A stretch of DNA of 64,000 nucleotides from Somniosus microcephalus. Taxonomy: Eukaryota. The stretch spans positions 47,864,001 through 47,928,000 of the forward strand of contig CM126221.1 in NCBI GenBank assembly GCA_052327205.1, read 5' to 3'. The position numbers and the translations under genes were made by a program. The notes under the pieces are model-generated. The model searched no databases. It was not told where the DNA came from and saw only the letters and a program-made list of their open reading frames with translations. Shown here in pieces: positions 2,409 through 64,000 of this stretch (within the stretch, counting starts at the first letter, position 1; each line of letters starts with the position of its first letter).

Positions 2409-2495
2409 GAGAAGGAGAAGCCCATCACCACCGCCAAGGCGCCGGCGTACACCATCTCCTAGAAGACGCAGATCACCATCTCCACTAAGGCGCAG
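2409..2495 (+). CDS. SRRM1: SRRM1 internal coding exon (RRRSPSPPPRRRRTPSPRRRRSPSPLRRR)
   Basis: CAG acceptor ends at 2408 and GTTAG donor starts at 2496; 87 nt, phase 2/2; RS/P-rich repeats in frame with the next exon. Confidence 0.85.
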
Positions 2496-21421: not shown

Positions 21422-21724
21422 AGGTGCAATATAACATGGATAAATGAGAGGTTATCCACTTTGGTGGCAAAAACAGGAAGGCAGATTATTATCTGAATGG
21501 CAATAGATTGGGAGAAGGGGAAGTGCAATGAGCCATGGCTAACAGTTAAGATTAGGATAAAAACATAACCAATTCTCTGAAACACAATGGAGTATTAAGA
21601 AAGTGGTGTTGGGGCCTCCACTACTTGCATCATACCTAGTTCGCAAAGTTAAGCTGACCACAATACAGAAAGGTCCAAGTACATTGGAGAGACCAAATGC
21701 AGATTGGGGGTTCGCTTTGCTGAA

Positions 21725-27784: not shown

Positions 27785-28400
27785 TTGGACAGAGTAAAGA
27801 CTTCTTACTGCAATTATATAGGGCCCTGGTGAGACCACACCTGGAGTACTGTGTGCAGTTTTGGTCTCCTTACCTAAGGAAGGATATGCTTGCCATAGAG
27901 GGAGTGCAATAAAGGTTCACCAGACTGATTCCTGGGATGGGGGAATTGTCCTATGAGGAGAGATTGAGTAGACTAGGCCTATATTCTCTAGAGTTTAGAA
28001 GAATGAGAGGTGGTCTCATTGAAACATACAAAATTCTTACAGGGTTTGACAGGGTAGATGCAGAGAGGATGCTTCCTCTGGCTGGGGAGTCCAGAACCAG
28101 GGGTCACCGTCTCAAATAAGGGGTCGGCCATTTAGGACTGAGATGAGGAGAAATTTCTTCACTCAGAGGATGGCGAATCTTTGGAATTCTCTTCCCCAGA
28201 GGGCTGTGGAGGCTCAGTCGTTGAGTATATTCAAGCCAGGGATCGATAGATTTTTTGGATATTAAGGGAATTGAGGGATATGGGGAGAGTCAGGAAAGTG
28301 GATTTGAGGTAGATGATCAGCCATGATCTTACTGAATGGCAGAGCAGGCTCGAGTGGCCATATGGCCTACTCTTATTCCTATTTCTTATGTTCTTATGTT
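27785..28400 (+). mobile_element. 5'-truncated CR1 LINE
   Basis: LYRALVRPHLEYCVQFWSP...GESRTRGH; 3' tail TTCTTATGTTCTTATGTT. Confidence 0.9.
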
Positions 28401-30306: not shown

Positions 30307-31055
30307 CAGGTAGACTATCCTTTATCCGAACTTCTGAAAACCTCTAAAAACCGAAAGTTTTTTCATTCAGCGTAAGTCGTGCGCACGACATGACCAGAGT
30401 AGTGCATGACTTACGCTGAGCAGGGCAGAGGGTCACAGAGTTCCCTCCTGGGTAGGAGATTGCAGGCCGAGCCGGGCAGTGTGAAGGAGGTACCGGGAGC
30501 GTGAACAACAATACAGCGGCCGGTCCGATAGCTGCAGCAGCCCGTCCGATATTCTTTTCTCCCCCCGACCCGACCCGCGGCCCGTCCGATATTCTTTTCT
30601 CCCCCCGACCCGACCCGACCGATATTCTTTTCTCCCCCGACCCGACCCGCGGCCCGTCCGATATTCTTTTCTCCCCCCCCCCCCCCGACCCGACCCGACC
30701 CGACCCGTCCAATATTCTTTTCTCCCGACCCGAACCGTGGACCGTCCGATATTCTTTTCTGCCCCCTGACCCCCCCCCCCCCGGACCCCCCTGACCCCGA
30801 CCTGAACCGCGGCCCATCCGATATTCCGACCTGATTTGCGGGCCAGCTTAGTAGGAGTCAGCCGATATCCGGCTTTCCAGAGAAGCAGGAAGGGGAATGA
30901 GACACGGAACAGTCGCAAGAGGTAGCCTGAACTTTTAAAATTTATATTAAATACAAGTTTCCCAGTTTTATAATAATACCTTCTGAAATCCGAAAAATTC
31001 CGAAAACCGAAACTCAGCTGGTCCCAAGGCTTTTGGATAATGGATAGTGTACCTG
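30307..31055. mobile_element. Tigger/pogo-like non-autonomous DNA transposon with an internal minisatellite
   Basis: TIRs CAGGTAGACTATCCTTTATCCGAA ... TTGGATAATGGATAGTGTACCTG with TA flanks; subterminal CCGAAA repeats resemble Tigger4/MER46-type ends; ~40-bp GTCCGATATTCTTTTCTCCCCCCGACCCGACCC repeats at 30541-30830. Confidence 0.8.
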
Positions 31056-45345: not shown

Positions 45346-46699
45346 ATAGGCAGATGAGTATTCCTTAAGTTCATTCTAAGTGTTGTCGCTCATTTTGCCT
45401 TCACAGAAATGGCATACAATCGCCTTCCATAGAAGCTGCAGGAAGCAGCTAACTTGGCACCCTGTCACAATTCCAAAATTTGGCATTTAGCAGCCCAATT
45501 AAACTCACCTGGGCGATTTAGATAAAGAGAATGAGGGGGGAACTGAGCATAGAGGAGCAGAAGGAGGGACAAGAGGAATCTGCAACAACTGCCTGGGCAG
45601 TGGACTCAAGACCTCTGTGGCCCGACTTTCAAAAGAAGAATGCTTTCAAAGCATGCTAGCCTGTTGCAGTCATTGGGTGATGTAGTCAGCAAGCTTCCGC
45701 AACATGATGGCAAGTGTAGAGGAGTGTGGGGTCCTGATGCACAGAATATAAAATATAGACATCCTTGGAGTGGGTAACTGCCCCAGCACCATCTGCTGCA
45801 CAGCTTTGTACAGCTGAGACCTTGTTCCAGTTTTGGGTGTTCTCCTGAATGCTCTCACTGATGCAATACAGGCTTTTATCTACAGTGTGGCCTTCTCAAT
45901 GGACAGGCTCACAGATGAGGCTGCTCAGTGCAGTTCCTGTCATGGGGTTTGTCAAACTTCAGATCGGTGGGCAGATTGTTAAAGGTCAGGAGAAGGTGCA
46001 GGTTGGAACAGAGGATATTGGTGCTTTCTCTTTAAATGACTCTACTTCCATAATTATCTGCACAGGGGCCTGAAAGCGGGCAAGGCCAGGATGTCCCACA
46101 GCAGTGAATGAACAGTCGCCTGAAGCCGACCCATCTAGTGTTGTGGCTGGTGGAGACTGAGAGCCACCTCGGGTCCTGCATCCTGACACTAATACACAGC
46201 TGCCATCCTTCTGCCCTGTTCCTGCCTTAGGGAATACTTAGACGAAGCACCAGGCTAGTTAGCCATGCACAAAAGACACCCACTGTTAGAAAGGGGAAGC
46301 ACTCTGATGGAAAGAATTAAGTTGACAGTTGACAATTTGGACATCTGTACAATAAATGTGTTGGCTGGAGATTAGGCTGTGTGCAAAGTCCTTTTGATGT
46401 CACTGGCTGTTGAGGTTTCTGTCAGTAGTGGAATGGTGGTGATTGGGAAAGTGAATGGATTCTGTGTAGGTTTTTCAGTGATGTTTTTATTGCAGAGGAA
46501 GGTCAAGAGGGAGGGATGGGATCTAACTGTTATACTAGATGGCATATTTAAGGGAAAAGTTCCAGGATGAGATTTCCCCAGATGGTTCAGCCAGTCGGAA
46601 CCTGACTGCCCTGGAGTCTTTCAGGAGCCTTGCCTTTGTCATGTGACAAATCCTACTGTTTCTCCTCTGGCTTGTTCCACTTTTTGCTTCTCCAGATGG

Positions 46700-47150
46700 A
46701 TGCCCCCGTCCTATAAGGTGTACACAGTATGCGACTATGATTCTAGATATCTTCCCTGGATTACATTGTACGGCAGTCCCTCAATGATCCAGGCATTGGA
46801 ACTTTTGCTTCAGAATGCCAGTGTTGTTTTCAATGGCCACTCTACTGAGCTTCATATCATTCTGCTTTATTAAATGGAGCCCTCAGGGATGTCGTTAACC
46901 ATGGTAACGGTGGATAGTCAAGGTCAGCTCACAACCAGCCCTTTGATCCTTGTCCTTCTACAAACCACGCTGGAATGGTCACTTGTCTGAGGATGAAGGC
47001 ATCGTGCAAGCTGGCAGAGAACCTGGCATTCACCTGCATAATTTTGTGCAGTGACCGCACACTGGCTGGGCGTTGATAGAATAGCATTCCCTTTGATTCA
47101 TTTAAGGGGCACTGCACGGGAGCACACTGCAGCCACAGTGGTGGAGGGGG
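46700..47150 (-). pseudogene. PIF/Harbinger (HARBI1-like, DDE_Tnp_4) transposase remnant
   Basis: The minus strand gives IMQVNARFSASLHDAFILRQ, GWL*ADLDYPPLPWLTTSL and RVAIENNTGILKQKFQCLDH*G....PGKISRIIVA, matching the HD, GD.GY and IE..IG.LK.RF.CL motifs. Confidence 0.8.
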
Positions 47151-47453
47151 TAGAACGGACCTGGTGTGACACCACGTTATAAGTGCTTTTACATTTGGCA
47201 TTTCTGTAGTTTAGGTCACAGGAGCGTGACGTCTGTATGCCAGCTCCCTGCTCTTACACTGCTAAAACAATCTCTTTCATCCCAAAAAAGCAAGAGGTTA
47301 TGGTTCTCACCATTGGGATAAGAGAGCTGGTTTTTGCAAAGTTGTGTTGAAGTACTGAAGGAGTACTGTGTTGTTGGCTAAACCAAGGCCCACGGTACTA
47401 TTCAGAAAACAGTACAAATTCTCCAAATAATCAATAGGTCAATGTGACCCTTC

Positions 47454-47513
47454 TGTAGTGTCCGAGTATCAATAATACACGGACTGCAGGAGAACAATAA
47501 TAACAGGTGTTTA
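47454..47513 (-). mobile_element. Possible 3' (U5) end of an LTR, cut off by the Tx1 array
   Basis: The minus strand reads CAGTAAACACC...GTGTATTATTG...GGACACTACA: an AGTAAA polyA-like signal and an ACACTACA terminus as in TG...CA LTRs. No PBS follows. This is inference from only 60 bp. Confidence 0.4.
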
Positions 47514-47593
47514 CTGAACAGAGGGTACTCTTTTGTTTGTACCAAAAAAAAACAAATTGACTGTAAACAGAAGTTCAACTAAAACTTAACAAA

Positions 47594-50500
47594 TCAAATT
47601 AAAATGTGGTTATCCGGGATGATGATGCACTCCAGTCCCCGCGGCGCCCACCGGTCGCGGAAATACTCAAGCGCACCGGCGGACACTGCGTGCTCCATCT
47701 CCAGGGCCACCCGGGCGCGAACATGGCCGCGGAAGAGAGGCAGGCAATCCGGCTGGACGACCCCCTTGACCGCCCGCTGCCAGGACCAATTGATGGCTCT
47801 TTTAGCCAGGCCCAGGAGCAGGCCCACAAGGAGGTCCTCCAACCTATCCGCTCCCCTCCGCACCGGGTGACCGTAGATCAAGAGCGTGGGACTGAAGTGC
47901 AACCAAAAATCGAGGAGCAGCCCCTTCAAGTAATGAAAGAGGGGCTGCAACCTCTCACACTCTATCTAAATGTGAAACACGGACTCCTCCAGGCCGCAAA
48001 AAATGCAGGCTGCCTGGGAGTCCGTGAACCTACTTAAAACCTTATTGCACGGGACCGCTCCGTGCAACACCCTCCAGGCCAAGTCCCCGATGGAACAAGG
48101 GAGGACTCCCGCGTAGAGAGCCCTCCATTGGGGACCTCCGCCACCGCCGGTTGGCAAGATGCCACGCCAAGGCGTGTCCGGACGGAAGACGAAGATGGCA
48201 AAGTGGAGAGTGTGCAGGAGCAGCCCGTACAGGAAACCCCTCCGCGCGGAATGAAAAGGCACGGAGGGTATTTCCTCGAGACGGCTCAAGTTGTGAGGCG
48301 CCGGTTCCCGAGGGGAGTTTCGGGGCCGGGCGCCGATGAGGAATTCCGTCCGAACGGGGGTAAGCTCGGACGGGATCGCCCCACGTGCTTGAGCCGCCTC
48401 GATACACCTAGTGAAGTCGGGGCCCAGTGCCGCTTTTACCGATTCGATGGTTTCGACCGCGAGCCGGACGTTGGCCCAGGACAGGCGCCATCCAGCCCGC
48501 TCCTCCGCCATCGAGCAGGTCCCCGACTCTGGTCACCTTGCCAGCCACAGCCCTACCCTCCGCCAGCCGCCCGAACCCGTGATCGTGGAGGTGCGGATTC
48601 CTGAGCAGCGGCTCCCGAAGGAGAGCCGCCGCTCCTGACGGGGGAGAGCTCCGCCTGGAAGCGACGTAGTTCCAAACCCATAGTAGTTCCTGGTAGAAGA
48701 CAGGCAGCTCCCGCAGGCCGGCACGCCTGCTGCCCACTTTCGCAAACAGGAGCTGCGTGTCGTAATTGAGGCCATGCAGCTGGCGGAAGAAAAACGTCGC
48801 CAGCGCACACCATCTCGGAGGATTCTCGACGTACAGGTATCTCTGCAGCGTCTGAAGACGGAAAGTCGCAGCCTGGGTGCGAAGGCACACCAGCGCCTGA
48901 CCGCCCTCCCTAAGCGGGAGACACAGAACCGCGGCAGAGACCCAGTGCTTCCTTTTGTCCCAGAAGAAGTCGATGAGCTTCTTCTGAATCTTGGCGACAA
49001 ACGCAGGGGGAGGGATCAAAGTGACCAACCGGTACCACAACATGGCGGCCACCAGCTGGTTTATGACCAGCGCTCGACCCCTGTAGGACAACACTCGGAG
49101 CAGTCCTGTCCAGCGTCCTAGGCGAGCGGTGACTTTGGCCTCCAGCTCTTGCCAGTTCGCCGGCCAAGCGTCCTCGGCAGGGCTAAGGTAGACTCCCAAA
49201 TAGAGGAGGTGCGTGGTGCTCCAGGCGAAAGGCCTGAACTCCTCCGGCAGGGAGTCCACCCGCCACTGACCCACCAGGAGTCCGGAACATTTCTCCCAGT
49301 TGATCTTGGCGGAGGATGCGTCCGAGTAAATCTGCTGGCATTCCCGCATCCTCCGCAAGTCAGCGGGATCCGTGACCATGAGGAGCACGTCATCGGCGTA
49401 AGCCGAGAGGACCACCTCCACGCCCGGCCCTTGCAGAGCCAGTCCCGTCAACCTCTTCCGCAAGAGGCGCAGGAAAGGCTCCACGCAAATGGCATATAAC
49501 TGACCGGACATGGGGCATCCCTGACGCACCCCCCTCCCGAAGCGAAGGGGCGCCGTCAAGGACCCGTTAACTTTAATCAGACACTCCGCGGCGGCGTACA
49601 GAAGTCGGATCCGGGCGACGAAATGCGTCCCGAACCCAAATGCGCGCAGAGTCCCGAAGAGATACTCGTGATCCACCCTGTCGAACGCCTTCTCCTGATC
49701 CAGGGAAAGGAAGGCGACCGACAGACCAGCCCTCTGGGAGTGGTGGACCAGGTCCCGGACCAGATGGATGTTATCGTGGATGGTTCGGCCCGGGACCGTG
49801 TAGGACTGGTCGGGGTGGATCATGTGGGCCAGCACGGTGCCAAGGCGAGCAGACATGGCCCTGGCAAAGATTTTATAGTCCGTGCTGAGGAGGGAGACCG
49901 GGCACCAGTTCTTAAGGAGGCGGAGATCGCCCTTCTTAGGCAGCAGGACAATGACCGCCCTGCGCCAAGAGAGGGGCATCTCCCCGGTCGCCAAACTTTC
50001 CCCCAGGACCCGCGCGTAGTCGCCCCCCAAGACGTCCCAGAACGCCCTGTGGAACTCCACGGTCAGCCCGTCCAGCCCCGGGGACTTTCCCCTAGAGAGC
50101 TGGCGGAGGGCGCCGGTCAGCTCCGCCAGACTTAGCGGAGCGTCCAATTTTTCGGCACCCTCCGGGCCAACCTTCGTCAGGTCCTCCCACAAAACTCTGC
50201 GTGCATCCTCGCTGGACGGATCCGGAGAGAACAGAGCCCCGTAATAGGCGCGGGTCTCCGCGCTGATTCCCTCCGGATCCGAGACCAGAGATCCGTCGTC
50301 GGCCAGCAGCCCCAAGAGCTGCTTACGGACCCCCCGTCTTTTTTCCAGCGAGTAGAAGAAGGGGGAGCCGCGGTCCAGGTCCCGCAGGAGCTGGATCCGC
50401 GACCTCACGTACGCACCTCGGGACCCGACGAGCTGCAGGTCCTTCAGCGCGCCCTTCTTCTCTTCGTACACCTTCCGCAGGGCCGGGTCCTCGACGACCT

Positions 50501-51473
50501 GACCGAGACGGGACTCCAGGTCGAGCACCTCCTTCTCCAACCGCCCGACCCGGGCCTCCCGCCTCTTGGTCGACCCCTTCGCGTACTCCTGACAGAAGAG
50601 ACGGATGTGAGCCTTGCCCACATCCCACCATAGCCTCAAGGAGGGGAAGCCCCCCTGCTTCCTTCTCCAGTCGGCCCAGAATCGACGAAACGAATCCCGG
50701 AACCGTGCGTCCTCCAGCAGCAGGTTGTTAAAATGCCAGTACACGGACCCGCCCCGCGCGCGCAGCGGAGCGAGCTCCGCCCACACCAGGTGGTGGTCCG
50801 TGCACGGCACCGGCCGCATGGAAGCTGCCGGAACGCAGGAGACGAACGCCCGGGAAATGTAGAGGCGGTCGATTCTGGACCTTCCTCCCCCAGACCTCAC
50901 GCTAGTGAAGGCGCTGGAGTCGGGGTGGAGATTTCGCCAGACGTCCACCAAGTCGAAGGACCCAACCAGGTCCCTCAACTTCTCCATCGCCGCCGGGCTT
51001 CGCGGGGGACCCGAACGGTCCCTCGCCTCGAGGGTGCAGTTAAAATCCCCCCCGAGGATGACGCACTCGCCCACGTCGATGGAGCCCAAGAGAGCGGACA
51101 CTTCTTCGAAGAAGCGCACTTGCTGCGCACTGGTCTGAGGGGCGTACACGTTCACTAGATGGAGCGGCACGCCCCCCAGGCGAACAGTGACATGGAGCAA
51201 GCGGCCCGGCACGTGCTCCTTGACCCCCAAGATCTCCGGCTGAAAATGCGGGGCCAGCAAGATAGCCACCCCGCTGGAATTGTTGGAGAGGTGACTCATG
51301 CTGACCCCTCCTTGCCACTCCAGGAGCCACGTAGCTTCGTCTCCCGGAACGGTGTGGGTTTCTTGCAGGAAGCACACCGCATACTTCCCGTCCCGAAGGA
51401 CCGAGAAGTTATTGAATCTGCGGCGCGCCTCCCTGCTGCCGTTGATGTTGAGGCTGGCTATGATTATCTTCAT
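47594..51473 (-). pseudogene. Tx1 ORF2 (APE endonuclease, RT, CCHC), frameshifted near 48485
   Basis: Same protein as 54706-58605 up to GWMAP, then out of frame because of a 20-bp deletion; the C-terminal part is further split (ORFs 47966-48511 and 47594-47950). Confidence 0.9.
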
Positions 51474-51504
51474 GTCAGAAGCATAGTGCAACCTCTACCT
51501 ACAC

Positions 51505-53652
51505 CTAACGGGGCGAGGAAGCGCAGCTGCTGGTCCGCCGCCACTTCCTCAGCAGCCCAGTGAGAAACGTTGTGAGCCGACGCAGCTCGAGCGGGTTCAC
51601 ACCCTCGTCCGCGCCCAAGATCTTAACGGCGGCGCGGACGGAATCGATGAGCAGCGCCAGCTCCGACCACCTGTCGAGGGCCAGCCGGACCTTATTGCGC
51701 TGACCCAGGCACGTGGCCATAAAATCCCGGAGTTCCCTTACGGAAATGAGGGGAGACTCGGCAAGGGGCACGAGGTCATCCATCGCCACGTCGGCGCTGG
51801 AGTCCGAATCGTCCTCCGTGCCCATCACCGAGTCCCCATCCTCCTCCAGGGGGTCGTCACCAGCGGCCGACCCGTCCGCCGCGCAGTGTGAAGTGAACGA
51901 CTCGGCTGCGCCAGCCAGCCCCGCCTCCGCCCGGATCCCACCCCCAGGATCGGCGGCAGAGGATTTCTCCCTGGGCTCCTCTAGGGGTGCCGGGCCAGAA
52001 GGCGGCGGCGGTTCAGAGCTCCCCTCCGCCTCAGACGCCGGAACGACCGGGGAGAGAACAATTTCCAGCTCCTCCAGTACGTCCGGCACCAGAGACGCAG
52101 CCAGGGGGCCATCCTCCTCCCCGCCACCAACCTCCGACCCAGCGGACGGGGGGTTTTGAATTAAAAGCTCTACCAGGACGAGCATCCCCTGGGAGACGTC
52201 CGGGTCGCATTGGGCGAGCTCATTATCCTCGAGCTCGCCCGACCCAGCCCCCAGGCTGCCCGACCCGGCGAGGGGTAACGACACCGATAAAAGGTCAACT
52301 TCAATTACTGCCGCGGGTTGTTCCGCAACCCCCCCCACGGGCAGGGTCTCATCCCCATCCCCGGGAGGCACGTGCTGGACAGACACATCTGCCTCAGCCT
52401 CCCGAGGGACAGGCGACCCCTGCCGATCGCTGGTGATGACGACAGCGCTGGGGGGGCGGGGGGGCGCAGTACCCGCGGCGGGCGACGACTCCCCCTGCTC
52501 GGAGGGACCTTCCTCCTCCCGGTCCTCCTCCTCATCCAGGGGGTCGCGCCTTCTTTTTAGCACGGAGGGAGCGAGGGAGACCTCCATGTCTGCAAAGGCC
52601 TCCTCCTCGACTCCCTCCGGCGGAGCAGGTTTGTCGGGTTCCTCGGGCCCGAGCCCGGCCGCAGGTATTGGCATTACCGCTGCGGCGGTTGCGGCCACAG
52701 GCTCGGGCACAGGGCCCCTCCCGCTCGCATCTGCCCTGATCAACTCCGCGAGGAGCGCGGGTGTAAGGGGCTCAAGGGGCAAGGGCTCACCATCCACGGG
52801 GGGGCCTGCCCCAAGGTGCTTCTTTTTTCCCCGCGCCTTCTTTCCGGCCGGACACGCTCCCTCCCCCCCGCCGGAGGCCTTGGTGGCATCGGCCCCCGAC
52901 GTCAACCGCGCATCAGACGTACTTGACGCGCGGGCAGATCCGGGGGGAAGGGCGGCGGCGGCGGCGCCAGCCTCGGCCGCACGAGATGATCCGGCGGCCT
53001 TGGAGGCAGGGCAGTTCCTCCTGATGTGCCCCACCTCCCTGCAGGCATGGCACCTCACACCGTCCGACGTCCAAAAGGCGCGGTAGGCGGTCCCCTCGTG
53101 GAGGACGACGAACGCCCCTTCAGTGTCCTCCTCCCGCGCCAGCTGGATAAACAGCTGGTGCCGGAAGGAGAAGACGTGGCGAAGGCTGGCCTCCCGGAAG
53201 CCGAGCGGGATGGGCGTGATCCCCGACCTCACCTCCCCAAGTTGTCGCAAATGGGGAAGGAGGAGCTCACCAGGAACATAGGGCGGGACGTTGGAAATAA
53301 TGATCCTCTGCGCGGTGGCCTCGAGAGGATCCACCGGCAGGAAGGTCCCGCCCACGGTGAGCCCCTTGGCGACAGCCAGGGACACCGCCCGCTCCGACCC
53401 CAGGAAGAACACAGCCTTCCCATACATTTTCGAGGCCGCGACGATGGCTGAGGGGCCGACAACCCCAGCCATGGCCTTGACGCAGGCCTCGATGGTCATA
53501 GTGGGGTGAGTGTAGCTCTTCACCCCAAGCTTTTTTGTTATTAATCGAAAAGGTGACGGGGCAGCAGGAACAGCGGGAGCAGCTGTGGCTGTGGCTACCA
53601 CTCTCGCATAGGTCCCGGCTGGCCCCGCCACCGGCGAAGATGCAGTCGCCAT
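51505..53652 (-). CDS. Tx1 ORF1 protein (RRM-like N-terminus, CCHC zinc knuckle, acidic/Pro-rich region), 715 aa
   Basis: ASKMYGKAVFFL and IISNVPPYV motifs; knuckle CHACREVGHIRRNC (CX2CX4HX4C). Confidence 0.9.
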   Translation of the reverse strand: MATASSPVAGPAGTYARVVATATAAPAVPAAPSPFRLITKKLGVKSYTHPTMTIEACVKAMAGVVGPSAIVAASKMYGKAVFFLGSERAVSLAVAKGLTVGGTFLPVDPLEATAQRIIISNVPPYVPGELLLPHLRQLGEVRSGITPIPLGFREASLRHVFSFRHQLFIQLAREEDTEGAFVVLHEGTAYRAFWTSDGVRCHACREVGHIRRNCPASKAAGSSRAAEAGAAAAALPPGSARASSTSDARLTSGADATKASGGGEGACPAGKKARGKKKHLGAGPPVDGEPLPLEPLTPALLAELIRADASGRGPVPEPVAATAAAVMPIPAAGLGPEEPDKPAPPEGVEEEAFADMEVSLAPSVLKRRRDPLDEEEDREEEGPSEQGESSPAAGTAPPRPPSAVVITSDRQGSPVPREAEADVSVQHVPPGDGDETLPVGGVAEQPAAVIEVDLLSVSLPLAGSGSLGAGSGELEDNELAQCDPDVSQGMLVLVELLIQNPPSAGSEVGGGEEDGPLAASLVPDVLEELEIVLSPVVPASEAEGSSEPPPPSGPAPLEEPREKSSAADPGGGIRAEAGLAGAAESFTSHCAADGSAAGDDPLEEDGDSVMGTEDDSDSSADVAMDDLVPLAESPLISVRELRDFMATCLGQRNKVRLALDRWSELALLIDSVRAAVKILGADEGVNPLELRRLTTFLTGLLRKWRRTSSCASSPR

Positions 53653-54705
53653 TCTGGGGTGCTTTTTTTAAGGGCTACACTCACCCCAAGTCACAGGCCT
53701 GAAGGTGTTAATGGCCTCGGTGTATATATATTTTTTTGTCCTCTATTGAGCAGAGGGAGCTGATTAAAATGAGGACACACCTCTCTCCTTATTGATTTAA
53801 ATTGGGAGAGGAGCCCTCGCCCTTCTGCTCAATTGGCAATTAATAAAATAGATGAAACTAAGGTGCCTTAGAAAGACAGGCAGAGAGAGACAAAGAGAGA
53901 GAGAGAGAGGTGGGGGGGTGGGAAGGAGGGAGGCCGCAAAGGGCAGTGTTGCCACTCAGGATGGTGGGTGGGTGTAGGCAGGGTTGCACTCTCTGATGGA
54001 AAAAGTCTTTGGTGATGGTGGTCTTCTGGCAGGGGGAGAAGACGTCTTCACCTGGAAAAGCTGGAGAAGCCCAGGCTTAGTCCTGCAACAGGTCTTAACG
54101 ATGTAATTAAATTAAATTAAGGACTTCACCTTGGGCAGCTCCAAGCTCTCCCAGGGCAGGCAATAGAAGGGATGCTAATTAGTGGTGTGTGTGGCCTAGC
54201 TTTTAACAAGAGCACACACACTACACCCCTTGATGATCCGGCCTTGCTTCTTCTTTTCTCCCCCCACCTAAAATACAAAGTCTTGGGAGAGTGCCCCAAA
54301 TAACACCCACCTGTAGATGTTCCAGATGAAGTTTTCTTCCCTCCTTTCAAGCAGTTGGTTTCTCTCCCCTCTCTCCCTCTCCTGAAGTGGAGGCCAAATT
54401 GGGGAGGCAGTGACAGAAAGGCCTCTCCCCTGGTTGATGTTGATGTAGGCCTCCTTTCTCCTTCTCCTCCTCTGTCCTCTCTCTCCAGACACCTCAGTTG
54501 ATGTAATGATGGTGGAGTTGGTGGTGGTGGTCCAACGTTCTCCTCCTCTTCCTGGTCAGGGGACCACCACTTTAATTCACTCTCCAAAGTCTGGCTGCTC
54601 CCTCTGCTCGTGCTTGCAGCTGAACAGAGGGTACTCTTTTATTTGGACCCAAAAAAAACCCAATTCGACTGTAAATAAACAAAAGTTCAACTAAAGCTTA
54701 ACAAA

Positions 54706-57700
54706 TCAAATTAAAATTTGGTTTTCCGTGTTGATGATGCACTCCAGTTCCCGCGGCGCCCACCGGTCGCGGAAATACTCAAGCGCACCGGCGGACACCG
54801 CGTGCTCCATCTCCAGGGCCACCCGGGCGCGAACATGGCCGCGGAAGAGATGCAGGCAATCCGGCTGGACGACCCCCTCGACCGCCCACTGCCTGGACCA
54901 ATTGATGGCTCTTTTAGCCAGGCCCAGGAGCAGGCCCACAAGGAGGTCCTCCAACCTGTCCGCTCCCCTCCGCACCGGGTGACCGTAGATCAAGAGCGTG
55001 GGACTGAAGTGCAACCAAAAATCGAGGAGCAGCCCCTTCAAGTAGTGAAAGAGGGGCTGCAACCTCTCACAATCCATATAAACGTGAAACACGGACTCCT
55101 CCAGGCCGCAAAAAATGCAGGCGGCCTGGGAGTCCGTGAACCTACTTAAAACCTTATTGCACGGGACCGCTCCGTGCAACACCCTCCAGGCCAAGTCCCC
55201 GATGGAACAAGGGAGGACTCCCGCATAGAGAGCCCTCCATTGGGGACCTCCGCTACCGCCGGTCGGCAAAACGCCACGCCAAGGCGTGTCCGGACGGTAG
55301 ACGAAGATGGCAAAGTGGAGAGTGTGCAGGAGCAGCCCGTACAGGAAACCCCTCCGCGCGGAATGAAAAGGCACGGAGGGTATTTCCTCGAGACGGCTCA
55401 AGTTGTGAGGCGCCGGTTCCCGAGGGGAGTTTCGGGGCCGGGCGCCGATGAGGAATTCCGTCCGAACGGGGGTAAGCTCGGACGGGATCGCCCCACGTGC
55501 TTGAGCCGCCTCGATACACCTAGTGGAGTCGGGGCCCAGTGCCGCTTTTACCGATTCGATGGTTTCGACCGCGAGCTGGACGTTGGCCCAGGACAGGCGC
55601 CGCGCCAGCTCCTCTGGCGCCATCCAGCCCGCTCCTCCGCCATCGAGCAGGTCCCCGACTCTGGTCACCTTGCCAGCCACAGCCCTACCCTCCGCCAGCC
55701 GCCCGAACCCGTGTTCGTGGAGGTGCGGATTCCTGAGCAGCGGCTCCCGAAGGAGAGCCGCCGCTCCTGACGGGGGAGAGCTCCGCCTGGAAGCGACGTA
55801 GTTCCAAACCCATAGTAGTTCCTGGTAGAAGACAGGCAGCTCCCGCAGGCCGGCACGCCTGCTGCCCACTTTCGCAAACAGGAGCTGCGTGTCGTAATTG
55901 AGGCCATGCAGCTGGCGGAAGAAAAACGTCGCCAGCGCACACCATCTCGGAGGATTCTCGACGTACAGGTATCTCTGCAGCGTCTGAAGACGGAAAGTCG
56001 CAGCCTGGGTGCGAAGGCACACCAGCGCCTGACCGCCCTCCCTAAGCGGGAGACACAGAACCGCGGCAGAGACCCAGTGCTTCCTTTTGTCCCAGAAGAA
56101 GTCGATGAGCTTCTTCTGAATCTTGGCGACAAACGCAGGGGGAGGGATCAAAGTGACCAACCGGTACCACAACATGGCGGCCACCAGCTGGTTTATGACT
56201 AGCGCTCGACCCCTGTAGGACAACACTCGGAGCAGTCCTGTCCAGCGTCCTAGGCGAGCGGTGACTTTGGCCTCCAGCTCTTGCCAGTTCGCCGGCCAAG
56301 CGTCCTCGGCAGGGCTAAGGTAGACTCCCAAATAGAGGAGGTGCGTGGTGCTCCAGGCGAAAGGCCTGAACTCCTCCGGCAGGGAGTCCACCCGCCACTG
56401 ACCCACCAGGAGTCCGGAACATTTCTCCCAGTTGATCTTGGCGGAGGATGCGTCCGAGTAAATCTGCTGGCATTCCCGCATCCTCCGCAAGTCAGCGGGA
56501 TCCGTGACCGTGAGGAGCACGTCATCGGCGTAAGCCGAGAGGACCACCTCCACGCCCGGCCCTTGCAGAGCCAGTCCCGTCAACCTCTTCCGCAAGAGGC
56601 GCAGGAAAGGCTCCACGCAAATGGCATATAACTGACCGGACATGGGGCATCCCTGACGCACCCCCCTCCCGAAGCGAAGGGGCGCCGTCAAGGACCCGTT
56701 AACTTTAATCAGACACTCCGCGGCGGCGTACAGAAGTCGGATCCGGGCGACGAAATGCGTCCCGAACCCGAATGCGCGCAGAGTCCCGAAGAGATACTCG
56801 TGATCCACCCTGTCGAACGCCTTCTCCTGATCCAGGGAAAGGAAGGCGACCGACAGACCAGCCCTCTGGGAGTGGTGGACCAGGTCCCGGACCAGATGGA
56901 TGTTATCGTGGATGGTCCGGCCCGGGACCGTGTAGGACTGGTCGGGGTGGATCATGTGGGCCAGCACGGTGCCAAGGCGAGCAGACATGGCCCTGGCAAA
57001 GATTTTATAGTCCGTGCTGAGGAGGGAGACCGGGCGCCAGTTCTTAAGGAGGCGGAGATCGCCCTTCTTAGGCAGCAGGACAATGACCGCCCTGCGCCAA
57101 GAGAGGGGCATCTCCCCGGTCGCCAAACTTTCCCCCAGGACCCGCGCGTAGTCGCCCCCCAAGACGTCCCAGAACGCCCTGTGGAACTCCACGGTCAGCC
57201 CGTCCAGCCCCGGGGACTTTCCCCTAGAGAGCTGGCGGAGGGCGCCGGTCAGCTCCGCCAGACTTAGCGGAGCGTCCAATTTTTTGGCGCCCTCCGGGCC
57301 AACCTTCGTCAGGTCCTCCCACAAAACTCTGCGCGCATCCTCGCTGGACGGATCCGGAGAGAACAGAGCCCCGTAATAGGCGCGGGTCTCCGCGTTGATT
57401 CCCTCCGGATCCGAGACCAGAGATCCGTCGTCGGCCAGCAGCCCCAAGAGCTGCTTACGGACCCCCCGTCTTTTTTCCAGCGAGTAGAAGAAGGGGGAGC
57501 CGCGGTCCAGGTCCCGCAGGAGCTGGATCCGCGACCTCACGTACGCGCCTCGGGACCCGACGAGCTGCAGGTCCTTCAGCGCGCCCTTCTTCTCTTCGTA
57601 CACCTTCCGCAGGGCCGGGTCCTCGACGACCTGACCGAGACGGGACTCCAGGTCGAGCACCTCCTTCTCCAACCGCCCGACCCGGGCCTCCCGCCTCTTG

Positions 57701-58605
57701 GTCGACCCCTTCGCGTACTCCTGACAGAAGAGACGGATGTGAGCCTTGCCCACATCCCACCATAGCCTCAAGGAGGGGAAGCCCCCCTGCTTCCTTCTCC
57801 AGTCGGCCCAGAATCGACGAAACGAATCCCGGAACCGTGCGTCCTCCAGCAGCAGGTTGTTAAAATGCCAGTACACGGACCCCCCCCGCGTGCGCAGCGG
57901 AGCGAGCTCCGCCCACACCAGGTGGTGGTCCGTGCACGGCACCGGCCGCATGGAAGCTGCCGGAACGCAGGAGACGAACGCCCGGGAAATGTAGAGGCGG
58001 TCGATTCTGGACCTTCCTCCCCCAGACCTCACGCTAGTGAAGGCGCTGGAGTCGGGGTGGAGATTTCGCCAGACGTCCACCAAGTCGAAGGACCCAACCA
58101 GGTCCCTCAACTTCTCCATCGCCGCCGGGCTTCGCGGGGGACCCGAACGGTCCCTCGCCTCGAGGGTGCAGTTAAAATCCCCCCCGAGGATGACGCACTC
58201 GCCCACGTCGATGGAGCCCAAGAGAGCGGACACTTCTTCGAAGAAGCGCACTTGCTGCGCACTGGTCTGAGGGGCGTACACGTTCACTAGATGGAGCGGC
58301 ACGCCCCCCAGGCGAACAGTGACATGGAGCAAGCGGCCCGGCACGTGCTCCTTGACCCCCAAGATCTCCGGCTGAAAATGCGGGGCCAGCAAGATAGCCA
58401 CCCCGCTGGAATTGTTGGAGAGGTGACTCATGCTGACCCCTCCTTGCCACTCCAGGAGCCACGTGGCTTCGTCTCCCGGAACGGTGTGGGTTTCTTGCAG
58501 GAAGCACACCGCATACTTCCCGTCCCGAAGGACCGAGAAGTTATTGAATCTGCGGCGCGCCTCCCTGCTGCCGTTGATGTTGAGGCTGGCTATGGTTATC
58601 TTCAT
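54706..58605 (-). CDS. Tx1 ORF2 protein, intact (~1300 aa; likely ATG start MKITIASLNING at 58605)
   Basis: APE motifs SLNING, FLQETH, GGDFN, SRIDR and TDH; RT motifs KSPGLDG, LDQEKAFDRV, GVRQGCP, YADD and YLGV; C-terminal CIFCGLEESVFHVYMDC. Confidence 0.95.
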   Translation of the reverse strand: MKITIASLNINGSREARRRFNNFSVLRDGKYAVCFLQETHTVPGDEATWLLEWQGGVSMSHLSNNSSGVAILLAPHFQPEILGVKEHVPGRLLHVTVRLGGVPLHLVNVYAPQTSAQQVRFFEEVSALLGSIDVGECVILGGDFNCTLEARDRSGPPRSPAAMEKLRDLVGSFDLVDVWRNLHPDSSAFTSVRSGGGRSRIDRLYISRAFVSCVPAASMRPVPCTDHHLVWAELAPLRTRGGSVYWHFNNLLLEDARFRDSFRRFWADWRRKQGGFPSLRLWWDVGKAHIRLFCQEYAKGSTKRREARVGRLEKEVLDLESRLGQVVEDPALRKVYEEKKGALKDLQLVGSRGAYVRSRIQLLRDLDRGSPFFYSLEKRRGVRKQLLGLLADDGSLVSDPEGINAETRAYYGALFSPDPSSEDARRVLWEDLTKVGPEGAKKLDAPLSLAELTGALRQLSRGKSPGLDGLTVEFHRAFWDVLGGDYARVLGESLATGEMPLSWRRAVIVLLPKKGDLRLLKNWRPVSLLSTDYKIFARAMSARLGTVLAHMIHPDQSYTVPGRTIHDNIHLVRDLVHHSQRAGLSVAFLSLDQEKAFDRVDHEYLFGTLRAFGFGTHFVARIRLLYAAAECLIKVNGSLTAPLRFGRGVRQGCPMSGQLYAICVEPFLRLLRKRLTGLALQGPGVEVVLSAYADDVLLTVTDPADLRRMRECQQIYSDASSAKINWEKCSGLLVGQWRVDSLPEEFRPFAWSTTHLLYLGVYLSPAEDAWPANWQELEAKVTARLGRWTGLLRVLSYRGRALVINQLVAAMLWYRLVTLIPPPAFVAKIQKKLIDFFWDKRKHWVSAAVLCLPLREGGQALVCLRTQAATFRLQTLQRYLYVENPPRWCALATFFFRQLHGLNYDTQLLFAKVGSRRAGLRELPVFYQELLWVWNYVASRRSSPPSGAAALLREPLLRNPHLHEHGFGRLAEGRAVAGKVTRVGDLLDGGGAGWMAPEELARRLSWANVQLAVETIESVKAALGPDSTRCIEAAQARGAIPSELTPVRTEFLIGARPRNSPREPAPHNLSRLEEIPSVPFHSARRGFLYGLLLHTLHFAIFVYRPDTPWRGVLPTGGSGGPQWRALYAGVLPCSIGDLAWRVLHGAVPCNKVLSRFTDSQAACIFCGLEESVFHVYMDCERLQPLFHYLKGLLLDFWLHFSPTLLIYGHPVRRGADRLEDLLVGLLLGLAKRAINWSRQWAVEGVVQPDCLHLFRGHVRARVALEMEHAVSAGALEYFRDRWAPRELECIINTENQILI

Positions 58606-58636
58606 GTCAGAAGCATAGTGCAACCTCTACCTACAC

Positions 58637-60793
58637 CTAACGGGGCGAGGAAGCGCAGCCGCTGGTCAGCCGCCACTTCCTCAGCAGCCCAGTGAGAAAC
58701 GTTGTGAGCCGACGCAGCTCGAGCGGGTTCACACCCTCATCCGCGCCCAAGATCTTAACGGCGGCGCGGACGGAATCGATGAGCAGCGCCAGCTCCGACC
58801 ACCTGTCGAGGGCCAGCCGGACCTTATTGCGCTGACCCAGGCACGTGGCCATAAAATCCCGGAGTTCCCTTACGGAAATGAGGGGAGACTCGGCAAGGGG
58901 CACGAGGTCATCCATCGCCACGTCGGCGCTGGAGTCCGAATCATCCTCCGTGCCCATCACCGAGTCCCCATCCTCCTCCAGGGGGTCGTCACCAGCGGCC
59001 GACCCGTCCGCCGCGCAGTGCGAAGCGAACGACTCGGCCGCGCCAGCCAGCCCCGCCTCCGCCCGGATCCCACCCCCAGGATCGGCGGCAGAGGATTTCT
59101 CCCTGGGCTCCTCTAGGGGTGCCGGGCCAGAAGACGGCGGCGGTTCAGAGCTCCCCTCCGCCTCAGACGCCGGAACGACCGGAGAAACCGGGGAGAGAAC
59201 AATTTCCAGCTCCTCCAGTACGTCCGGCACCAGAGACGCAGCCAGGGGGCCATCCTCCTCCCCGCCACCAACCTCCGACCCAGCGGACGGGGGGTTTTGA
59301 ATTAAAAGCTCCACCAGGACGAGCATCCCCTGGGAGACGTCCGGGTCGCATTGGGCGAGCTCATTATCCTCGAGCTCGCCCGACCCAGCCCCCAGGCTGC
59401 CCGACCCGGCGAGGGGTAACGACACCGATAAAAGGTCAACTTCAATTACTGCCGCGGGTTGTTCCGCAACCCCCCCCACGGGCAGGGTCTCATCCCCATC
59501 CCCGGGAGGCACGTGCTGGACAGACACATCTGCCTCAGCCTCCCGAGGGACAGGCGACCCCTGCCGATCGCTGGTGATGACGACAGCGCTGGGGGGGCGG
59601 GGGGGCGCAGTACCCGCGGCGGGCGACGACTCCCCCTGCTCGGAGGGACCTTCCTCCTCCCGGTCCTCCTCCTCATCCAGGGGGTCGCGCCTTCTTTTTA
59701 GCACGGAGGGAGCGAGGGAGACCTCCATGTCTGCAAAGGCCTCCTCCTCGACTCCCTCCGGCGGAGCAGGTTTGTCGGGTTCCTCGGGCCCGAGCCCGGC
59801 CGCAGGTATTGGCATTACCGCTGCGGCGGTTGCGGCCACAGGCTCGGGCACGGGGCCCCTCCCGCTCACATCTGCCCTGATCAACTCCGCGAGGAGCGCG
59901 GGTGTAAGGGGCTCAAGGGGCAAGGGCTCACCATCCACGGGCGGACCTGCCCTAAGGTGCTTCTTTTTTCCCCGCGCCTTCTTTCCGGCCGGACACGCTC
60001 CCTCCCCCCCGCCGGAGGCCTTGGTGGCATCGGCCCCCGACGTCAACCGCGCATCAGACGTACTTGACGCGCGGGCAGATCCGGGGGGAAGGGCGGCGGC
60101 GGCGGCGCCAGCCTCGGCCGCACGAGACGGTCCGGCGGCCTTGGAGGCAGGGCAGTTCCTCCTGATGTGCCCCACCTCCCTGCAGGCATGGCACCTCACA
60201 CCGTCCGACGTCCAAAAGGCGCGGTAGGCGGTCCCCTCGTGGAGGACGACGAACGCCCCTTCAGTGTCCTCCTCCCGCGCCAGCTGGATAAACAGCTGGC
60301 GCCGGAAGGAGAAGACGTGGCGAAGGCTGGCCTCCCGGAAGCCGAGCGGGATGGGCGTGATCCCCGACCTCACCTCCCCAAGTTGTCGCAAATGGGGAAG
60401 GAGGAGCTCACCAGGAACATAGGGCGGGACGTTGGAAATAATGATCCTCTGCGCGGTGGCCTCGAGAGGATCCACCGGCAGGAAAGTCCCGCCCACGGTG
60501 AGCCCCTTGGCGACAGCCAGGGACACCGCCCGCTCCGACCCCAGGAAGAACACAGCCTTCCCATACATTTTCGAGGCCGCGACGATGGCTGAGGGGCCGA
60601 CAACCCCAGCCATGGCCTTGACGCAGGCCTCGATGGTCATAGTGGGGTGAGTGTAGCTCTTCACCCCAAGCTTTTTCGTTATTAATCGAAAAGGTGACGG
60701 GGCAGCAGGAACAGCGGGAGCAGCTGTGGCTGTGGCTACCACTCTCGCATAGGTCCCGGCTGGCCCCGCCACCGGCGAAGATGCAGTCGCCAT
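58637..60793 (-). CDS. Tx1 ORF1 protein, 718 aa
   Basis: As unit 1 ORF1, plus a 9-bp in-frame extra segment (VSP). Confidence 0.92.
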   Translation of the reverse strand: MATASSPVAGPAGTYARVVATATAAPAVPAAPSPFRLITKKLGVKSYTHPTMTIEACVKAMAGVVGPSAIVAASKMYGKAVFFLGSERAVSLAVAKGLTVGGTFLPVDPLEATAQRIIISNVPPYVPGELLLPHLRQLGEVRSGITPIPLGFREASLRHVFSFRRQLFIQLAREEDTEGAFVVLHEGTAYRAFWTSDGVRCHACREVGHIRRNCPASKAAGPSRAAEAGAAAAALPPGSARASSTSDARLTSGADATKASGGGEGACPAGKKARGKKKHLRAGPPVDGEPLPLEPLTPALLAELIRADVSGRGPVPEPVAATAAAVMPIPAAGLGPEEPDKPAPPEGVEEEAFADMEVSLAPSVLKRRRDPLDEEEDREEEGPSEQGESSPAAGTAPPRPPSAVVITSDRQGSPVPREAEADVSVQHVPPGDGDETLPVGGVAEQPAAVIEVDLLSVSLPLAGSGSLGAGSGELEDNELAQCDPDVSQGMLVLVELLIQNPPSAGSEVGGGEEDGPLAASLVPDVLEELEIVLSPVSPVVPASEAEGSSEPPPSSGPAPLEEPREKSSAADPGGGIRAEAGLAGAAESFASHCAADGSAAGDDPLEEDGDSVMGTEDDSDSSADVAMDDLVPLAESPLISVRELRDFMATCLGQRNKVRLALDRWSELALLIDSVRAAVKILGADEGVNPLELRRLTTFLTGLLRKWRLTSGCASSPR

Positions 60794-61779
60794 TCTGGGG
60801 TGCTTTTTTTAAGGGCTACACTCACCCCAAGTCACAGGCCTGAAGGTGTTAATGGCCTCGGTGTATATATATATTTTTTTGTCCTCTATTGAGCAGAGGG
60901 AGCTGATTAAAATGAGGACACACCTCTCTCCTTATTGATTTAAATTGGGAGAGGAGCCCTCGCCCCTCTGCTTCAATTGGCAATTAATAAAATAGATGAA
61001 ACTAAGGTGCCTTAGAAAGACAGGCAGAGAGAGACAAAGAGAGAGAGAGAGAGAGGTGGGGGGGGGGTGGGAAGGAGGGAGGCCGCAAAGGGCAGTGTTG
61101 CCACTCAGGATGGTGGGTGGGTGTAGGCAGGGTTGCACTCTCCGATGGAAAAAGTCTTTGGTGATGGTGGTCTTCTGGCAGGGGGAGAAGACGTCTTCAC
61201 CTGGAAAAGCTGGAGAAGCCCAAGCTTAGTCCTGCAACAGGTCTTAACGAGGTAATTAAATTAAATTAAGGACTTCACCTTGGGCAGCTCCAAGCTCTCC
61301 CAGGGCAGGCAATAGAAGGGATGCTAATTAGTGGTGTGTGTGGCCTAGCTTTTAACAAGAGCACACACACTACACCCCTTGATGATCCAGCCTTGCTTCT
61401 TCTTTTCTCCCCCCACCTAAAATACAAAGTCTTGGGAGAGTGCCCCAAATAACACCCACCTGTAGATGTTCCGGATGAAGTTTTCTTCCCTCCTTTCAAG
61501 CAGTTGGTTTCTCTCCCCTCTCTCCCTCTCCTGAAGTGGAGGCCAAATTGGGGAGGCAGTGATAGAAAGGCCTCTCCCCTGGTTGATGTTGATGTAGGCC
61601 TCCTTTCTCCTTCTCTGTCCTCTCTCTCCAGGCACCTCAGTTGATGTAATGATGGTGGAGTTGGTGGTGGTGGTCCAACGTTCTCCTCCTCTTCCTGGTC
61701 AGGGGACCACCACTTTAATCCACTCTCCAAAGTCTGGCTGCTCCCTCTACTCGTGCTTGCAGCTGAACAGAGGGTACTC

Positions 61780-64000
61780 TTTTATTTGGACCCAAAAAAA
61801 ACCAATTCGACTGTAAATAAACAAAAGTTCAACTAAAGCTTAACAAATCAAATTAAAATTTGGTTATCCGTGTTGATGATGCACTCCAGTCCCCGCGGCG
61901 CCCACCGGTCGCGGAAATACTCAAGCGCACCGGCGGACACCGCGTGCTCCATCTCCAGGGCCACCCGGGCGCGAACATGGCCGCGGAAGAGATGCAGGCA
62001 ATCCGGCTGGACGACCCCCTCGACCGCCCGCTGCCTGGACCAATTGATGGCTCTTTTAGCCAGGCCCAGGAGCAGGCCCACAAGGAGGTCCTCCAACCTG
62101 TCCGCTCCCCTCCGCACCGGGTGACCGTAGATCAAGAGCGTGGGACTGAAGTGCAACCAAAAATCGAGGAGCAGCCCCTTCAAGTAGTGAAAGAGGGGCT
62201 GCAACCTCTCACAATCCATATAAACGTGAAACACGGACTCCTCCAGGCCGCAAAAAATGCAGGCGGCCTGGGAGTCCGTGAACCTACTTAAAACCTTATT
62301 GCACGGGACCGCTCCGTGCAACACCCTCCAGGCCAAGTCCCCGATGGAACAAGGGAGGACTCCCGCATAGAGAGCCCTCCATTGGGGACCTCCGCTACCG
62401 CCGGTCGGCAAAACGCCACGCCAAGGCGTGTCCGGACGGTAGACGAAGATGGCAAAGTGGAGAGTGTGCAGGAGCAGCCCGTACAGGAAACCCCTCCGCG
62501 CGGAATGAAAAGGCACGGAGGGTATTTCCTCGAGACGGCTCAAGTTGTGAGGCGCCGGTTCCCGAGGGGAGTTTCGGGGCCGGGCGCCGATGAGGAATTC
62601 CGTCCGAACGGGGGTAAGCTCGGACGGGATCGCCCCACGTGCTTGAGCCGCCTCGATACACCTAGTGGAGTCGGGGCCCAGTGCCGCTTTTACCGATTCG
62701 ATGGTTTCGACCGCGAGCCGGACGTTGGCCCAGGACAGGCGCCGCGCCAGCTCCTCCGGCGCCATCCAGCCCGCTCCTCCGCCATCGAGCAGGTCCCCGA
62801 CTCTGGTCACCTTGCCAGCCACAGCCCTACCCTCCGCCAGCCGCCCGAACCCGTGTTCGTGGAGGTGCGGATTCCTGAGCAGCGGCTCCCGAAGGAGAGC
62901 CGCCGCTCCTGACGGGGGAGAGCTCCGCCTGGAAGCGACGTAGTTCCAAACCCATAGTAGTTCCTGGTAGAAGACAGGCAGCTCCCGCAGGCCGGCACGC
63001 CTGCTGCCCACTTTCGCAAACAGGAGCTGCGTGTCGTAATTGAGGCCATGCAGCTGGCGGAAGAAAAACGTCGCCAGCGCACACCATCTCGGAGGATTCT
63101 CGACGTACAGGTATCTCTGCAGCGTCTGAAGACGGAAAGTCGCAGCCTGGGTGCGAAGGCACACCAGCGCCTGACCGCCCTCCCTAAGCGGGAGACACAG
63201 AACCGCAGCAGAGACCCAGTGCTTCCTTTTGTCCCAGAAGAAGTCGATGAGCTTCTTCTGAATCTTGGCGACAAACGCAGGGGGAGGGATCAAAGTGACC
63301 AACCGGTACCACAACATGGCGGCCACCAGCTGGTTTATGACCAGCGCTCGACCCCTGTAGGACAACACTCGGAGCAGTCCTGTCCAGCGTCCTAGGCGAG
63401 CGGTGACTTTGGCCTCCAGCTCTTGCCAGTTCGCCGGCCAAGCGTCCTCGGCAGGGCTAAGGTAGACTCCCAAATAGAGGAGGTGCGTGGTGCTCCAGGC
63501 GAAAGGCCTGAACTCCTCCGGCAGGGAGTCCACCCGCCACTGACCCACCAGGAGTCCGGAACATTTCTCCCAGTTGATCTTGGCGGAGGATGCGTCCGAG
63601 TAAATCTGCTGGCATTCCCGCATCCTCCGCAAGTCAGCGGGATCCGTGACCGTGAGGAGCACGTCATCGGCGTAAGCCGAGAGGACCACCTCCACGCCCG
63701 GCCCTTGCAGAGCCAGTCCCGTCAACCTCTTCCGCAAGAGGCGCAGGAAAGGCTCCACGCAAATGGCATATAACTGACCGGACATGGGGCATCCCTGACG
63801 CAGCCCCCTCCCGAAGCGAAGGGGCGCCGTCAAGGACCCGTTAACTTTAATCAGACACTCCGCGGCGGCGTACAGAAGTCGGATCCGGGCGACGAAATGC
63901 GTCCCGAACCCGAATGCGCGCAGAGTCCCGAAGAGATACTCGTGATCCACCCTGTCGAACGCCTTCTCCTGATCCAGGGAAAGGAAGGCGACCGACAGAC
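61780..64000 (-). mobile_element. Tx1-clade retrotransposon, unit 3 (3' part; ORF2 open from the window edge to the stop at 61848)
   Basis: At least 700 aa of uninterrupted RT/CCHC region, near-identical to unit 2. Confidence 0.93.

What the first reader, a model, noticed from the sequence alone, without database searches (positions are those of the whole stretch)
47454..47534. The Tx1 array target may lie inside an LTR (retrotransposon hyperparasitism)
Seen: at the array edge the minus strand reads GAGTACCCTCTGTTCAG-TAAACACCTGTTATTATTG...GGACACTACA. The 17-bp junction motif runs straight into an AGTAAA signal and a TGTAGTGT/ACACTACA-type terminus 60 bp later. Known: Tx1-clade elements are often target specific (Xenopus Tx1L into the Tx1D DNA transposon, Keno into U2 snRNA, Mutsu into 5S rDNA, Dewa into tRNA spacers). 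I do not recognise this target as any of those. Inference: a Tx1 family targeting the polyA-signal region of an LTR retrotransposon or solo LTR.
Basis: inference. Interest (0 to 1): 0.75.

Follow-up and report, generated by a model that had tools for sequence, protein, structure and literature searches.

The report
Tx1 LINE array inside probable LTR
A stack of jumping genes sits inside the end of another very abundant mobile repeat, probably a retrotransposon end-repeat (LTR), which is a real but already described habit for this group of elements.

Summary
At least three head-to-tail Tx1-type LINEs (7.1 kb; ORF2 50% identical to Xenopus Tx1L) begin at 47528. Public contigs show that 47454-47527 is the end of a very abundant repeat. 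Summed depth jumps from about 20 to about 10^6 at 47454, 88 contigs carry unlike flanks there, and a relative's contig has an apparently empty site. That relative and a second one lack the repeat. Copies without the LINE continue after 47527, so the shared target is 14 bp (47514-47527), not 17. The end looks like LTR R/U5 (AGTAAA, GT-rich stretch, terminal ACA), but the other end, PBS/PPT, internal genes and TSD could not be seen: LTR about 85%, superfamily open. Site specificity rests on three identical junctions, two tail variants and one further junction contig; flanks were not counted genome-wide. Tx1 families that prefer LTR retrotransposons are already published (Tx1-8_Crp, Tx1-4_AMi; PMC4494074). 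This is a new member of a known kind.

The parts
47454..47527 (-). End piece of a high-copy host repeat, probably the R/U5 end of a 3' or solo LTR; true terminus at 47454
   Evidence: Depth step 23.6 to 1.0-2.3 million (X10) and 18.3 to 0.37-1.25 million (X12); 88 X10 contigs with unlike flanks at 47454 (agreement 0.36); zero depth over 47454-47513 in X1 and X13
47510..47515 (-). AGTAAA, candidate polyadenylation signal of the host; overlaps the target motif by 2 nt
   Evidence: AGTAAA is a known LTR signal variant (PMC2664473 passage). Function not tested
47514..47527 (-). 14-bp target motif / probable target-site duplication, copy 1
   Evidence: host copies without the LINE diverge behind 47527 (table 7)
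47528..54619 (-). Tx1 unit 1. ORF1 51505-53652; ORF2 from 51473, broken by a 20-bp deletion at 48483/48484. The last 660 bp are a different, minority variant
54620..54633 (-). 14-bp target motif, copy 2, between units 1 and 2
54634..61762 (-). Tx1 unit 2 with open frames. ORF1 58637-60793 (718 aa, CCHC knuckle); ORF2 54706-58605 (1299 aa, APE endonuclease + RT + zf-RVT); AATAAA at 54638-54643; no poly(A) tail
61763..61776 (-). 14-bp target motif, copy 3
61777..64000 (-). Tx1 unit 3, 3' part, runs off the window; AATAAA at 61781-61786
46490..47453 (.). Single-copy left flank, shared with two relatives; apparently empty site in organism A
   Evidence: flat depth 7-37 over 47214-47433; X1 record 1 aligns 47214-47453 and then has 22 unlike letters

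Best explanation
A Tx1-clade LINE inserts site-specifically, in sense orientation, at one spot just upstream of the polyadenylation signal of an abundant, lineage-restricted LTR family. SHOWN: the host piece is the end of a high-copy repeat that exists without the LINE and is missing from two relatives; a 14-bp host motif flanks every LINE junction seen; the array holds at least two LINE variants. INFERRED: the host is an LTR. The endonuclease nicks the plus strand at 47527/47528, reverse transcription starts there, and a second nick 14 bp away duplicates the motif. The full site survives only at the LINE's 5' junction, so later copies land upstream of earlier ones and the oldest tail stays at the array edge. 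Unequal crossover or gene conversion then homogenised the interior. Less certain: with AATAAA 4 nt from its end and no poly(A) tail, the RNA probably runs into the motif and may pair with the nicked strand.
For:: depth step at 47454; 88 diverse-flank contigs; empty site in X1; host-only continuation behind 47527 in two runs; LINE-tail depth only 9% (X10) and 6% (X12) of host depth. A second tail variant (X10 record 10: 14 other letters, 11 gaps) aligns through 47510, 4 nt into host-specific sequence. One contig returns from 47538 to 47508, as a stub insertion with a duplication would (table 5c). LTR features: last 7 nt fit NNYNACA, with AGTAAA and a GT-rich stretch in the published order; 119 of 94,706 flank positions (0.13%) have such an end plus a hexamer. 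Unit 1's last 664 aligned bases differ from unit 2 at 30 sites (4.5%) against 47 of 6,422 (0.7%) elsewhere, Fisher p 2e-12. At 8 of 8 places checked, units 2 and 3 carry the contig-majority letter and unit 1 the minority one. ORF2 is 653/1298 identical to Tx1L. Tx1L-EN nicks TAGCTGA/AGTT (PMC1950540 supplement); here the letters after the inferred nick start AGCT (X10) or TGCT (X12), a weak echo.
Against: Only one end of the host was seen: no U3, PBS, PPT, gag/pol, second terminus or TSD. No flank census: table 7 hid 914 rows and table 8 hid 21,239 records. Both 5' junctions seen are full-length and identical, and units 2 and 3 differ by only 8 of 2,224 bases, which local duplication explains as well as repeated insertion. 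Organisms A and G have abundant Tx1-like ORF2 ends but no host end at 80% likeness. By bin arithmetic one A contig still aligns from about 47518 into the tail. The endonuclease hairpin loop is 3 residues shorter than Tx1L's, so the nick-site echo may be chance. Contig depth is not a copy number.
Confidence: 0.7

Rival explanations
1. Targeting is real, but the host is not an LTR. It is another mobile repeat with a fixed TG end, such as a non-autonomous Ginger-type DNA transposon (terminus type recalled, not from a call).
For: Only 74 bp of one end were seen. Given an NNYNACA end, a hexamer at that distance occurs by chance in 119 of 881 cases (14%). Tx1L and Tx1-Mar target DNA transposons.
Against: Hexamer, GT-rich stretch and terminus are in LTR order and orientation. 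All three together occur at 11 of 94,706 positions, though that GT threshold was set after seeing the site.
Confidence: 0.12
2. There is no family-wide specificity. One or two chance insertions fell into an abundant LTR and were then amplified locally by unequal crossover.
For: Units 99.3-99.6% alike with identical full-length 5' junctions. The host is abundant. Relatives hold Tx1-like sequence without this host.
Against: Two tail variants meet the same motif in the window. A further variant contig and a stub-plus-duplication contig meet it elsewhere. Duplicating one insertion cannot put different variants at the same base.
Confidence: 0.11
3. Same target, different cut. The nick is at 47517/47518, the duplication is only 4 bp, and 47518-47527 is carried as the LINE's own 3' end.
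For: The plus strand at the array junctions reads AGCTGAA, as in the Tx1L nick site. One organism-A contig aligns from about 47518 although A lacks the host end (bin arithmetic only).
Against: It needs a 10-nt identity between LINE end and host to be explained separately. Published Tx1-linked duplications are about 10 and 16 bp. The older tail at the edge fits retargeting of the 5' junction.
Confidence: 0.05
4. 47454-47527 is simply the LINE's own 3' end or a 3' transduction.
For: It abuts the LINE tail with no poly(A) between.
Against: It is absent from both internal junctions. Host-only contigs continue into non-LINE sequence behind 47527, and its depth is 11-18 times the tail's.
Confidence: 0.02

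Closest known systems
Crocodilian Tx1-8_Crp and Tx1-4_AMi (Kojima 2015, PMC4494074; main text read, supplements not available)
   Same: Tx1-clade LINEs preferentially inserted into specific LTR retrotransposon groups. The same paper reports tandem SINEU-3 copies sandwiching a 16-nt duplication.
   Different: Those copies are old (Tx1-Mar 85-87% to consensus); these units are 99.3-99.6% alike with open frames in unit 2. Whether they hit the LTR itself or the same position is in supplements I could not see. Tx1-4_AMi has a U1 head; no snRNA match was found here.
Xenopus laevis Tx1L (P0002)
   Same: Two ORFs, APE endonuclease + RT, ORF2 50% identical over 1,298 aligned residues; inserts into another transposon at one site.
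   Different: Its target is the DNA transposon Tx1D. The endonuclease hairpin loop here is 3 residues shorter. The target motifs differ apart from a few letters around the nick.
R1Bm / SART1Bm priming by RNA-target pairing (PMC7265360 passages)
   Same: Works like: a 3' RNA end that matches the target is thought to anneal and fix the start of reverse transcription.
   Different: R1 clade, with rDNA or telomere targets. Here read-through is inferred only from AATAAA position and the missing poly(A) tail.
Animal Metaviridae (Gypsy) and retroviral LTR R/U5 ends (PMC3601003, PMC2664473 passages)
   Same: Poly(A) hexamer, GT-rich stretch, terminal ACA.
   Different: No family match could be made. 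The end fits the gamma motif at 7 of 7 and the Sushi and general motifs at 6 of 7 positions, which does not separate Gypsy from ERV.

Membership tests
Tx1 clade LINE | ORF2 with APE-type endonuclease, RT and C-terminal zinc motif | tested here: met
   Pfam PF03372, PF00078 above cut-off; PF13966 below cut-off; L1-EN structures matched
Tx1 clade LINE | Closest named full-length relative is a Tx1 element | tested here: met
   Tx1L ORF2 50% identity, 99% coverage. No tree was built, so the subgroup is open
Tx1 clade LINE | ORF1 with RNA-binding domains and CCHC knuckle | tested here: met
   CX2CX4HX4C visible in ORF1; Atlas neighbours carry zf-CCHC and ZCCHC3 RBDs at 0.90-0.94 (lead only); no Pfam hit on the protein itself
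Target-specific Tx1 family | More than 20% of flanks are one repeat type (criterion in PMC4494074) | tested here: inconclusive
   3 of 3 window junctions carry the motif and two further contigs fit, but no count over copies was possible (tables cut)
LTR | Multi-copy element with a fixed terminus and variable flanks | tested here: met
   depth step, 88 contigs, agreement 0.36
LTR | 3' end ...CA with poly(A) hexamer and GT-rich stretch upstream | tested here: met
LTR | 5' TG end, U3 and TATA region | not testable with these tools
   Beyond 64000; only about 30 loose letters seen; no genome
LTR | 4-6-bp target-site duplication | not testable with these tools
   Far flank not held; the 22 unlike letters of X1 record 1 were not printed
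LTR retrotransposon (Gypsy, BEL or ERV) | PBS, PPT and gag-pol between paired LTRs | not testable with these tools
   No second copy in the window; no match in three public collections
RNA-gene or microsatellite-targeting Tx1 (Keno, Mutsu, Dewa, Kibi, Koshi) | Flank is U2, 5S, tRNA or a TC/TTC repeat | tested here: not met
No Rfam, tRNA or tandem-repeat hit at the site.

The most novel reading that the evidence does not exclude
This is a recent target switch caught in the act. A young Tx1 subfamily with a shortened endonuclease loop moved onto an LTR family that expanded only in this lineage, while relatives 93-95% identical in the flank keep Tx1 cousins but lack the host. It inserts between the LTR promoter and poly(A) signal, so the array is transcribed as part of the host cassette, and it primes by pairing its read-through RNA to the 14-bp target instead of using a poly(A) tail.
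Probability: 0.2. Interest if true: 0.6.

Novelty: new member of a known kind. Interest (0 to 1): 0.3.

Why it matters
It adds a young, probably still intact example of a LINE that parasitises another retroelement, in what looks like a cartilaginous-fish genome, with the insertion point fixed to the base. Host and tail variant are abundant in two organisms and nearly absent in two close relatives, so it could show how fast Tx1 endonucleases change target. The principle (Tx1 into LTR retrotransposons, tandem stacks around a duplication) is already in print.

Tried and rejected
No own genome was available. Exact scans for the host end found 0 matches in metagenome, viral and prokaryote collections. 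No loci encoding ORF2 relatives were confirmed: 0 of 64 and 0 of 2 candidate stretches. No second host copy lies in the window, and the host's continuation has only one 3-mismatch match there (7 of 100 shuffles do as well). No RNA gene, tRNA or microsatellite lies at the target, and there is no snRNA head on the LINE (one chance-level hit, E 0.79). Folding of the host piece (z -1.83, 10 of 200 shuffles as good), the tails and the 5' end showed nothing notable. The left flank looked Harbinger-like by eye, but Pfam gave no hit on 10 ORFs and 9 read-through frames. A CACTA reading was rejected because the orientation is wrong and the left side is single-copy. Christensen 2000 and Anzai 2005 were not held; Kojima and Fujiwara 2004 was seen only as a citation. 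Earlier findings by place or sequence: none.

Full report
Setting. The right quarter of the window is GC-rich (0.50-0.69 from 47001 on, against about 0.36-0.53 before) and is a head-to-tail array on the minus strand with spacings of about 7.1 kb. Unit 2 has two open frames. ORF2 carries endonuclease and RT domains and is 653/1298 identical to Xenopus Tx1L ORF2. Pieces of shark and ray proteins in the same search are 69-75% identical, so the genome is probably a cartilaginous fish (inference). No genome is held, so the genome-wide test used public contigs: 4 of 15 listed runs were laid on 47214-47813.

Observation. The quoted letters are there. A 14-nt motif stands at 47514, 54620 and 61763 and nowhere else in the window. 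The three junctions agree for 21 nt because they continue into the shared LINE tail, so the window alone cannot place the boundary. No other copy of 47454-47513 is in the window.

The host is a repeat with a true end at 47454. In one search, summed contig depth is flat at 23.6 (X10) and 18.3 (X12) on the left flank and rises to 0.37-2.3 million over 47454-47513. This is not a copy number; dividing the peak by the flank depth and by 31 for overlapping contigs gives a rough floor of 2,000-3,000 (my arithmetic). In X10, 88 contigs (of 7,308 laid) have loose ends exactly before 47454, median 255 letters, agreement 0.36, which means many different flanks. Contigs in X10 and X12 cross from flank into host, confirming the junction. 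In organisms A and G (X1, X13) the flank is present (12 differences in 240 and in 180 letters) but depth over 47454-47513 is zero. X1 record 1 aligns up to 47453 and then has 22 unlike letters, best read as the empty site. X1 was read only to about 55%.

The target is 14 bp. Behind 47527, 18 contigs in X10 and 15 in X12 continue into a shared non-LINE sequence starting AGCT or TGCT (table 7; agreement 0.59 and 0.75). Tail depth at 47534-47553 is 9% and 6% of host depth, so most host copies seem to lack this tail. The motif 47514-47527 is therefore host sequence, repeated between units as a target-site duplication would be.

Is the host an LTR? On the minus strand it reads AGTAAA, a GT-rich stretch, and a terminus ending ACA 56 nt after the hexamer. 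That order is the conserved R/U5 layout of animal Gypsy and retroviral LTRs (PMC3601003 passages), and AGTAAA is a known variant signal (PMC2664473 passage). In the window's left part, 119 of 94,706 positions have such an end plus a hexamer, and 11 also pass a GT test whose threshold I set after seeing the site. Nothing else of the element could be seen, and three collections held no match. I put LTR at about 85% and leave Gypsy, BEL or ERV open. Because the left flank is single-copy and shared with relatives, this would be a 3' or solo LTR.

Is insertion site-specific? For: all 3 window junctions are identical. Unit 1's last 664 aligned bases differ from unit 2 at 30 sites against 47 of 6,422 elsewhere (p 2e-12), and at 8 of 8 places that I picked from the table unit 1 has the minority letter, so two variants reached this site. 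X10 record 10 is a further tail variant aligned through 47510, and one contig returns from 47538 to 47508 as a stub with a duplication would. Against or missing: no flank census, since 914 loose-end rows and 21,239 records were not shown. Units 2 and 3 differ at 8 of 2,224 bases and both 5' junctions are full length, which local duplication also explains. A and G have abundant Tx1-like ORF2 ends without this host, and one A contig appears to align from about 47518 into a unit-1-type tail (15.9 of 20 positions by bin arithmetic).

Mechanism. Shown: boundaries, orientation, two variants, no poly(A) at any of 3 tails, AATAAA 4 nt before the motif in units 2 and 3 and AACAAA in unit 1. Inferred from general LINE biology: a nick on the plus strand at 47527/47528, target-primed reverse transcription, and a 14-bp duplication. 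The host letters beyond the nick remain only at the 5' junction, which predicts new copies upstream of old ones; the older tail at the edge fits. Tx1L-EN nicks TAGCTGA/AGTT in 57% of events (PMC1950540 supplement 1), a weak echo of the site here, but our hairpin loop is 3 residues shorter. An alternative nick at 47517/47518 gives the same sequences and cannot be excluded. Read-through RNA pairing with the target, as proposed for SART1Bm and R1Bm (PMC7265360 passages), is a hypothesis.

Comparison and novelty. Kojima 2015 (PMC4494074; parts 1-4 of 5, the whole main text; supplements not available) states that Tx1-8_Crp and Tx1-4_AMi insert preferentially into specific LTR retrotransposon groups and that tandem SINEU-3 copies sandwich a duplication. 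Tandem insertion is also reported for Utopia (PMC4640811 passages). The unseen supplements may show the same position within LTRs. Eight answered paper searches plus one on priming listed no paper on this family in sharks, but Repbase reports and subscription journals are not held, so this is not proof of absence. PMC8869645 and PMC3747384 (passages) added only general context. Earlier notes of this scan describe like cases in other genomes; these are leads, not support.

Verdict. New member of a known kind; interest 0.3.

Noticed in passing
window 47528-48190: Unit 1 is a seamless mosaic: its last 660 bp differ from units 2 and 3 by 4.1-4.5%, the rest by 0.4-0.8%.
   Followed up: yes
window 47518-47553, run X1: One contig at single-copy depth in organism A appears to carry a unit-1-type tail joined to part of the motif, although A lacks the host end (bin arithmetic). 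Unexplained.
   Followed up: partly
window 47509: About 60-65% of host depth in X10 and X12 has A instead of G, just beyond the AGTAAA signal; suggests two host subfamilies.
   Followed up: no
window 18622-19437 (+): Open frame with a Pif1 helicase 2B domain (PF21530, E 1.6e-17), possibly a Helitron relic.
   Followed up: no
window 8476-10113, 20457-21538, 27796-28399, 42997-45330: Several related RT-bearing LINE relics, 65-92% alike (RVT_1 at 8476-10020); CR1-like by recall only.
   Followed up: no
window 30540-30772: GC-rich 40-bp minisatellite, about 6 copies.
   Followed up: no
window 46660-46900 (-): Broken frame that looks like a Harbinger-type nuclease by eye (recalled motif); no Pfam hit.
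   Followed up: partly
window 21928-23208 (+): 426-codon stop-free frame in a C/T-skewed stretch with no Pfam hit; probably the antisense of a LINE relic.
   Followed up: no
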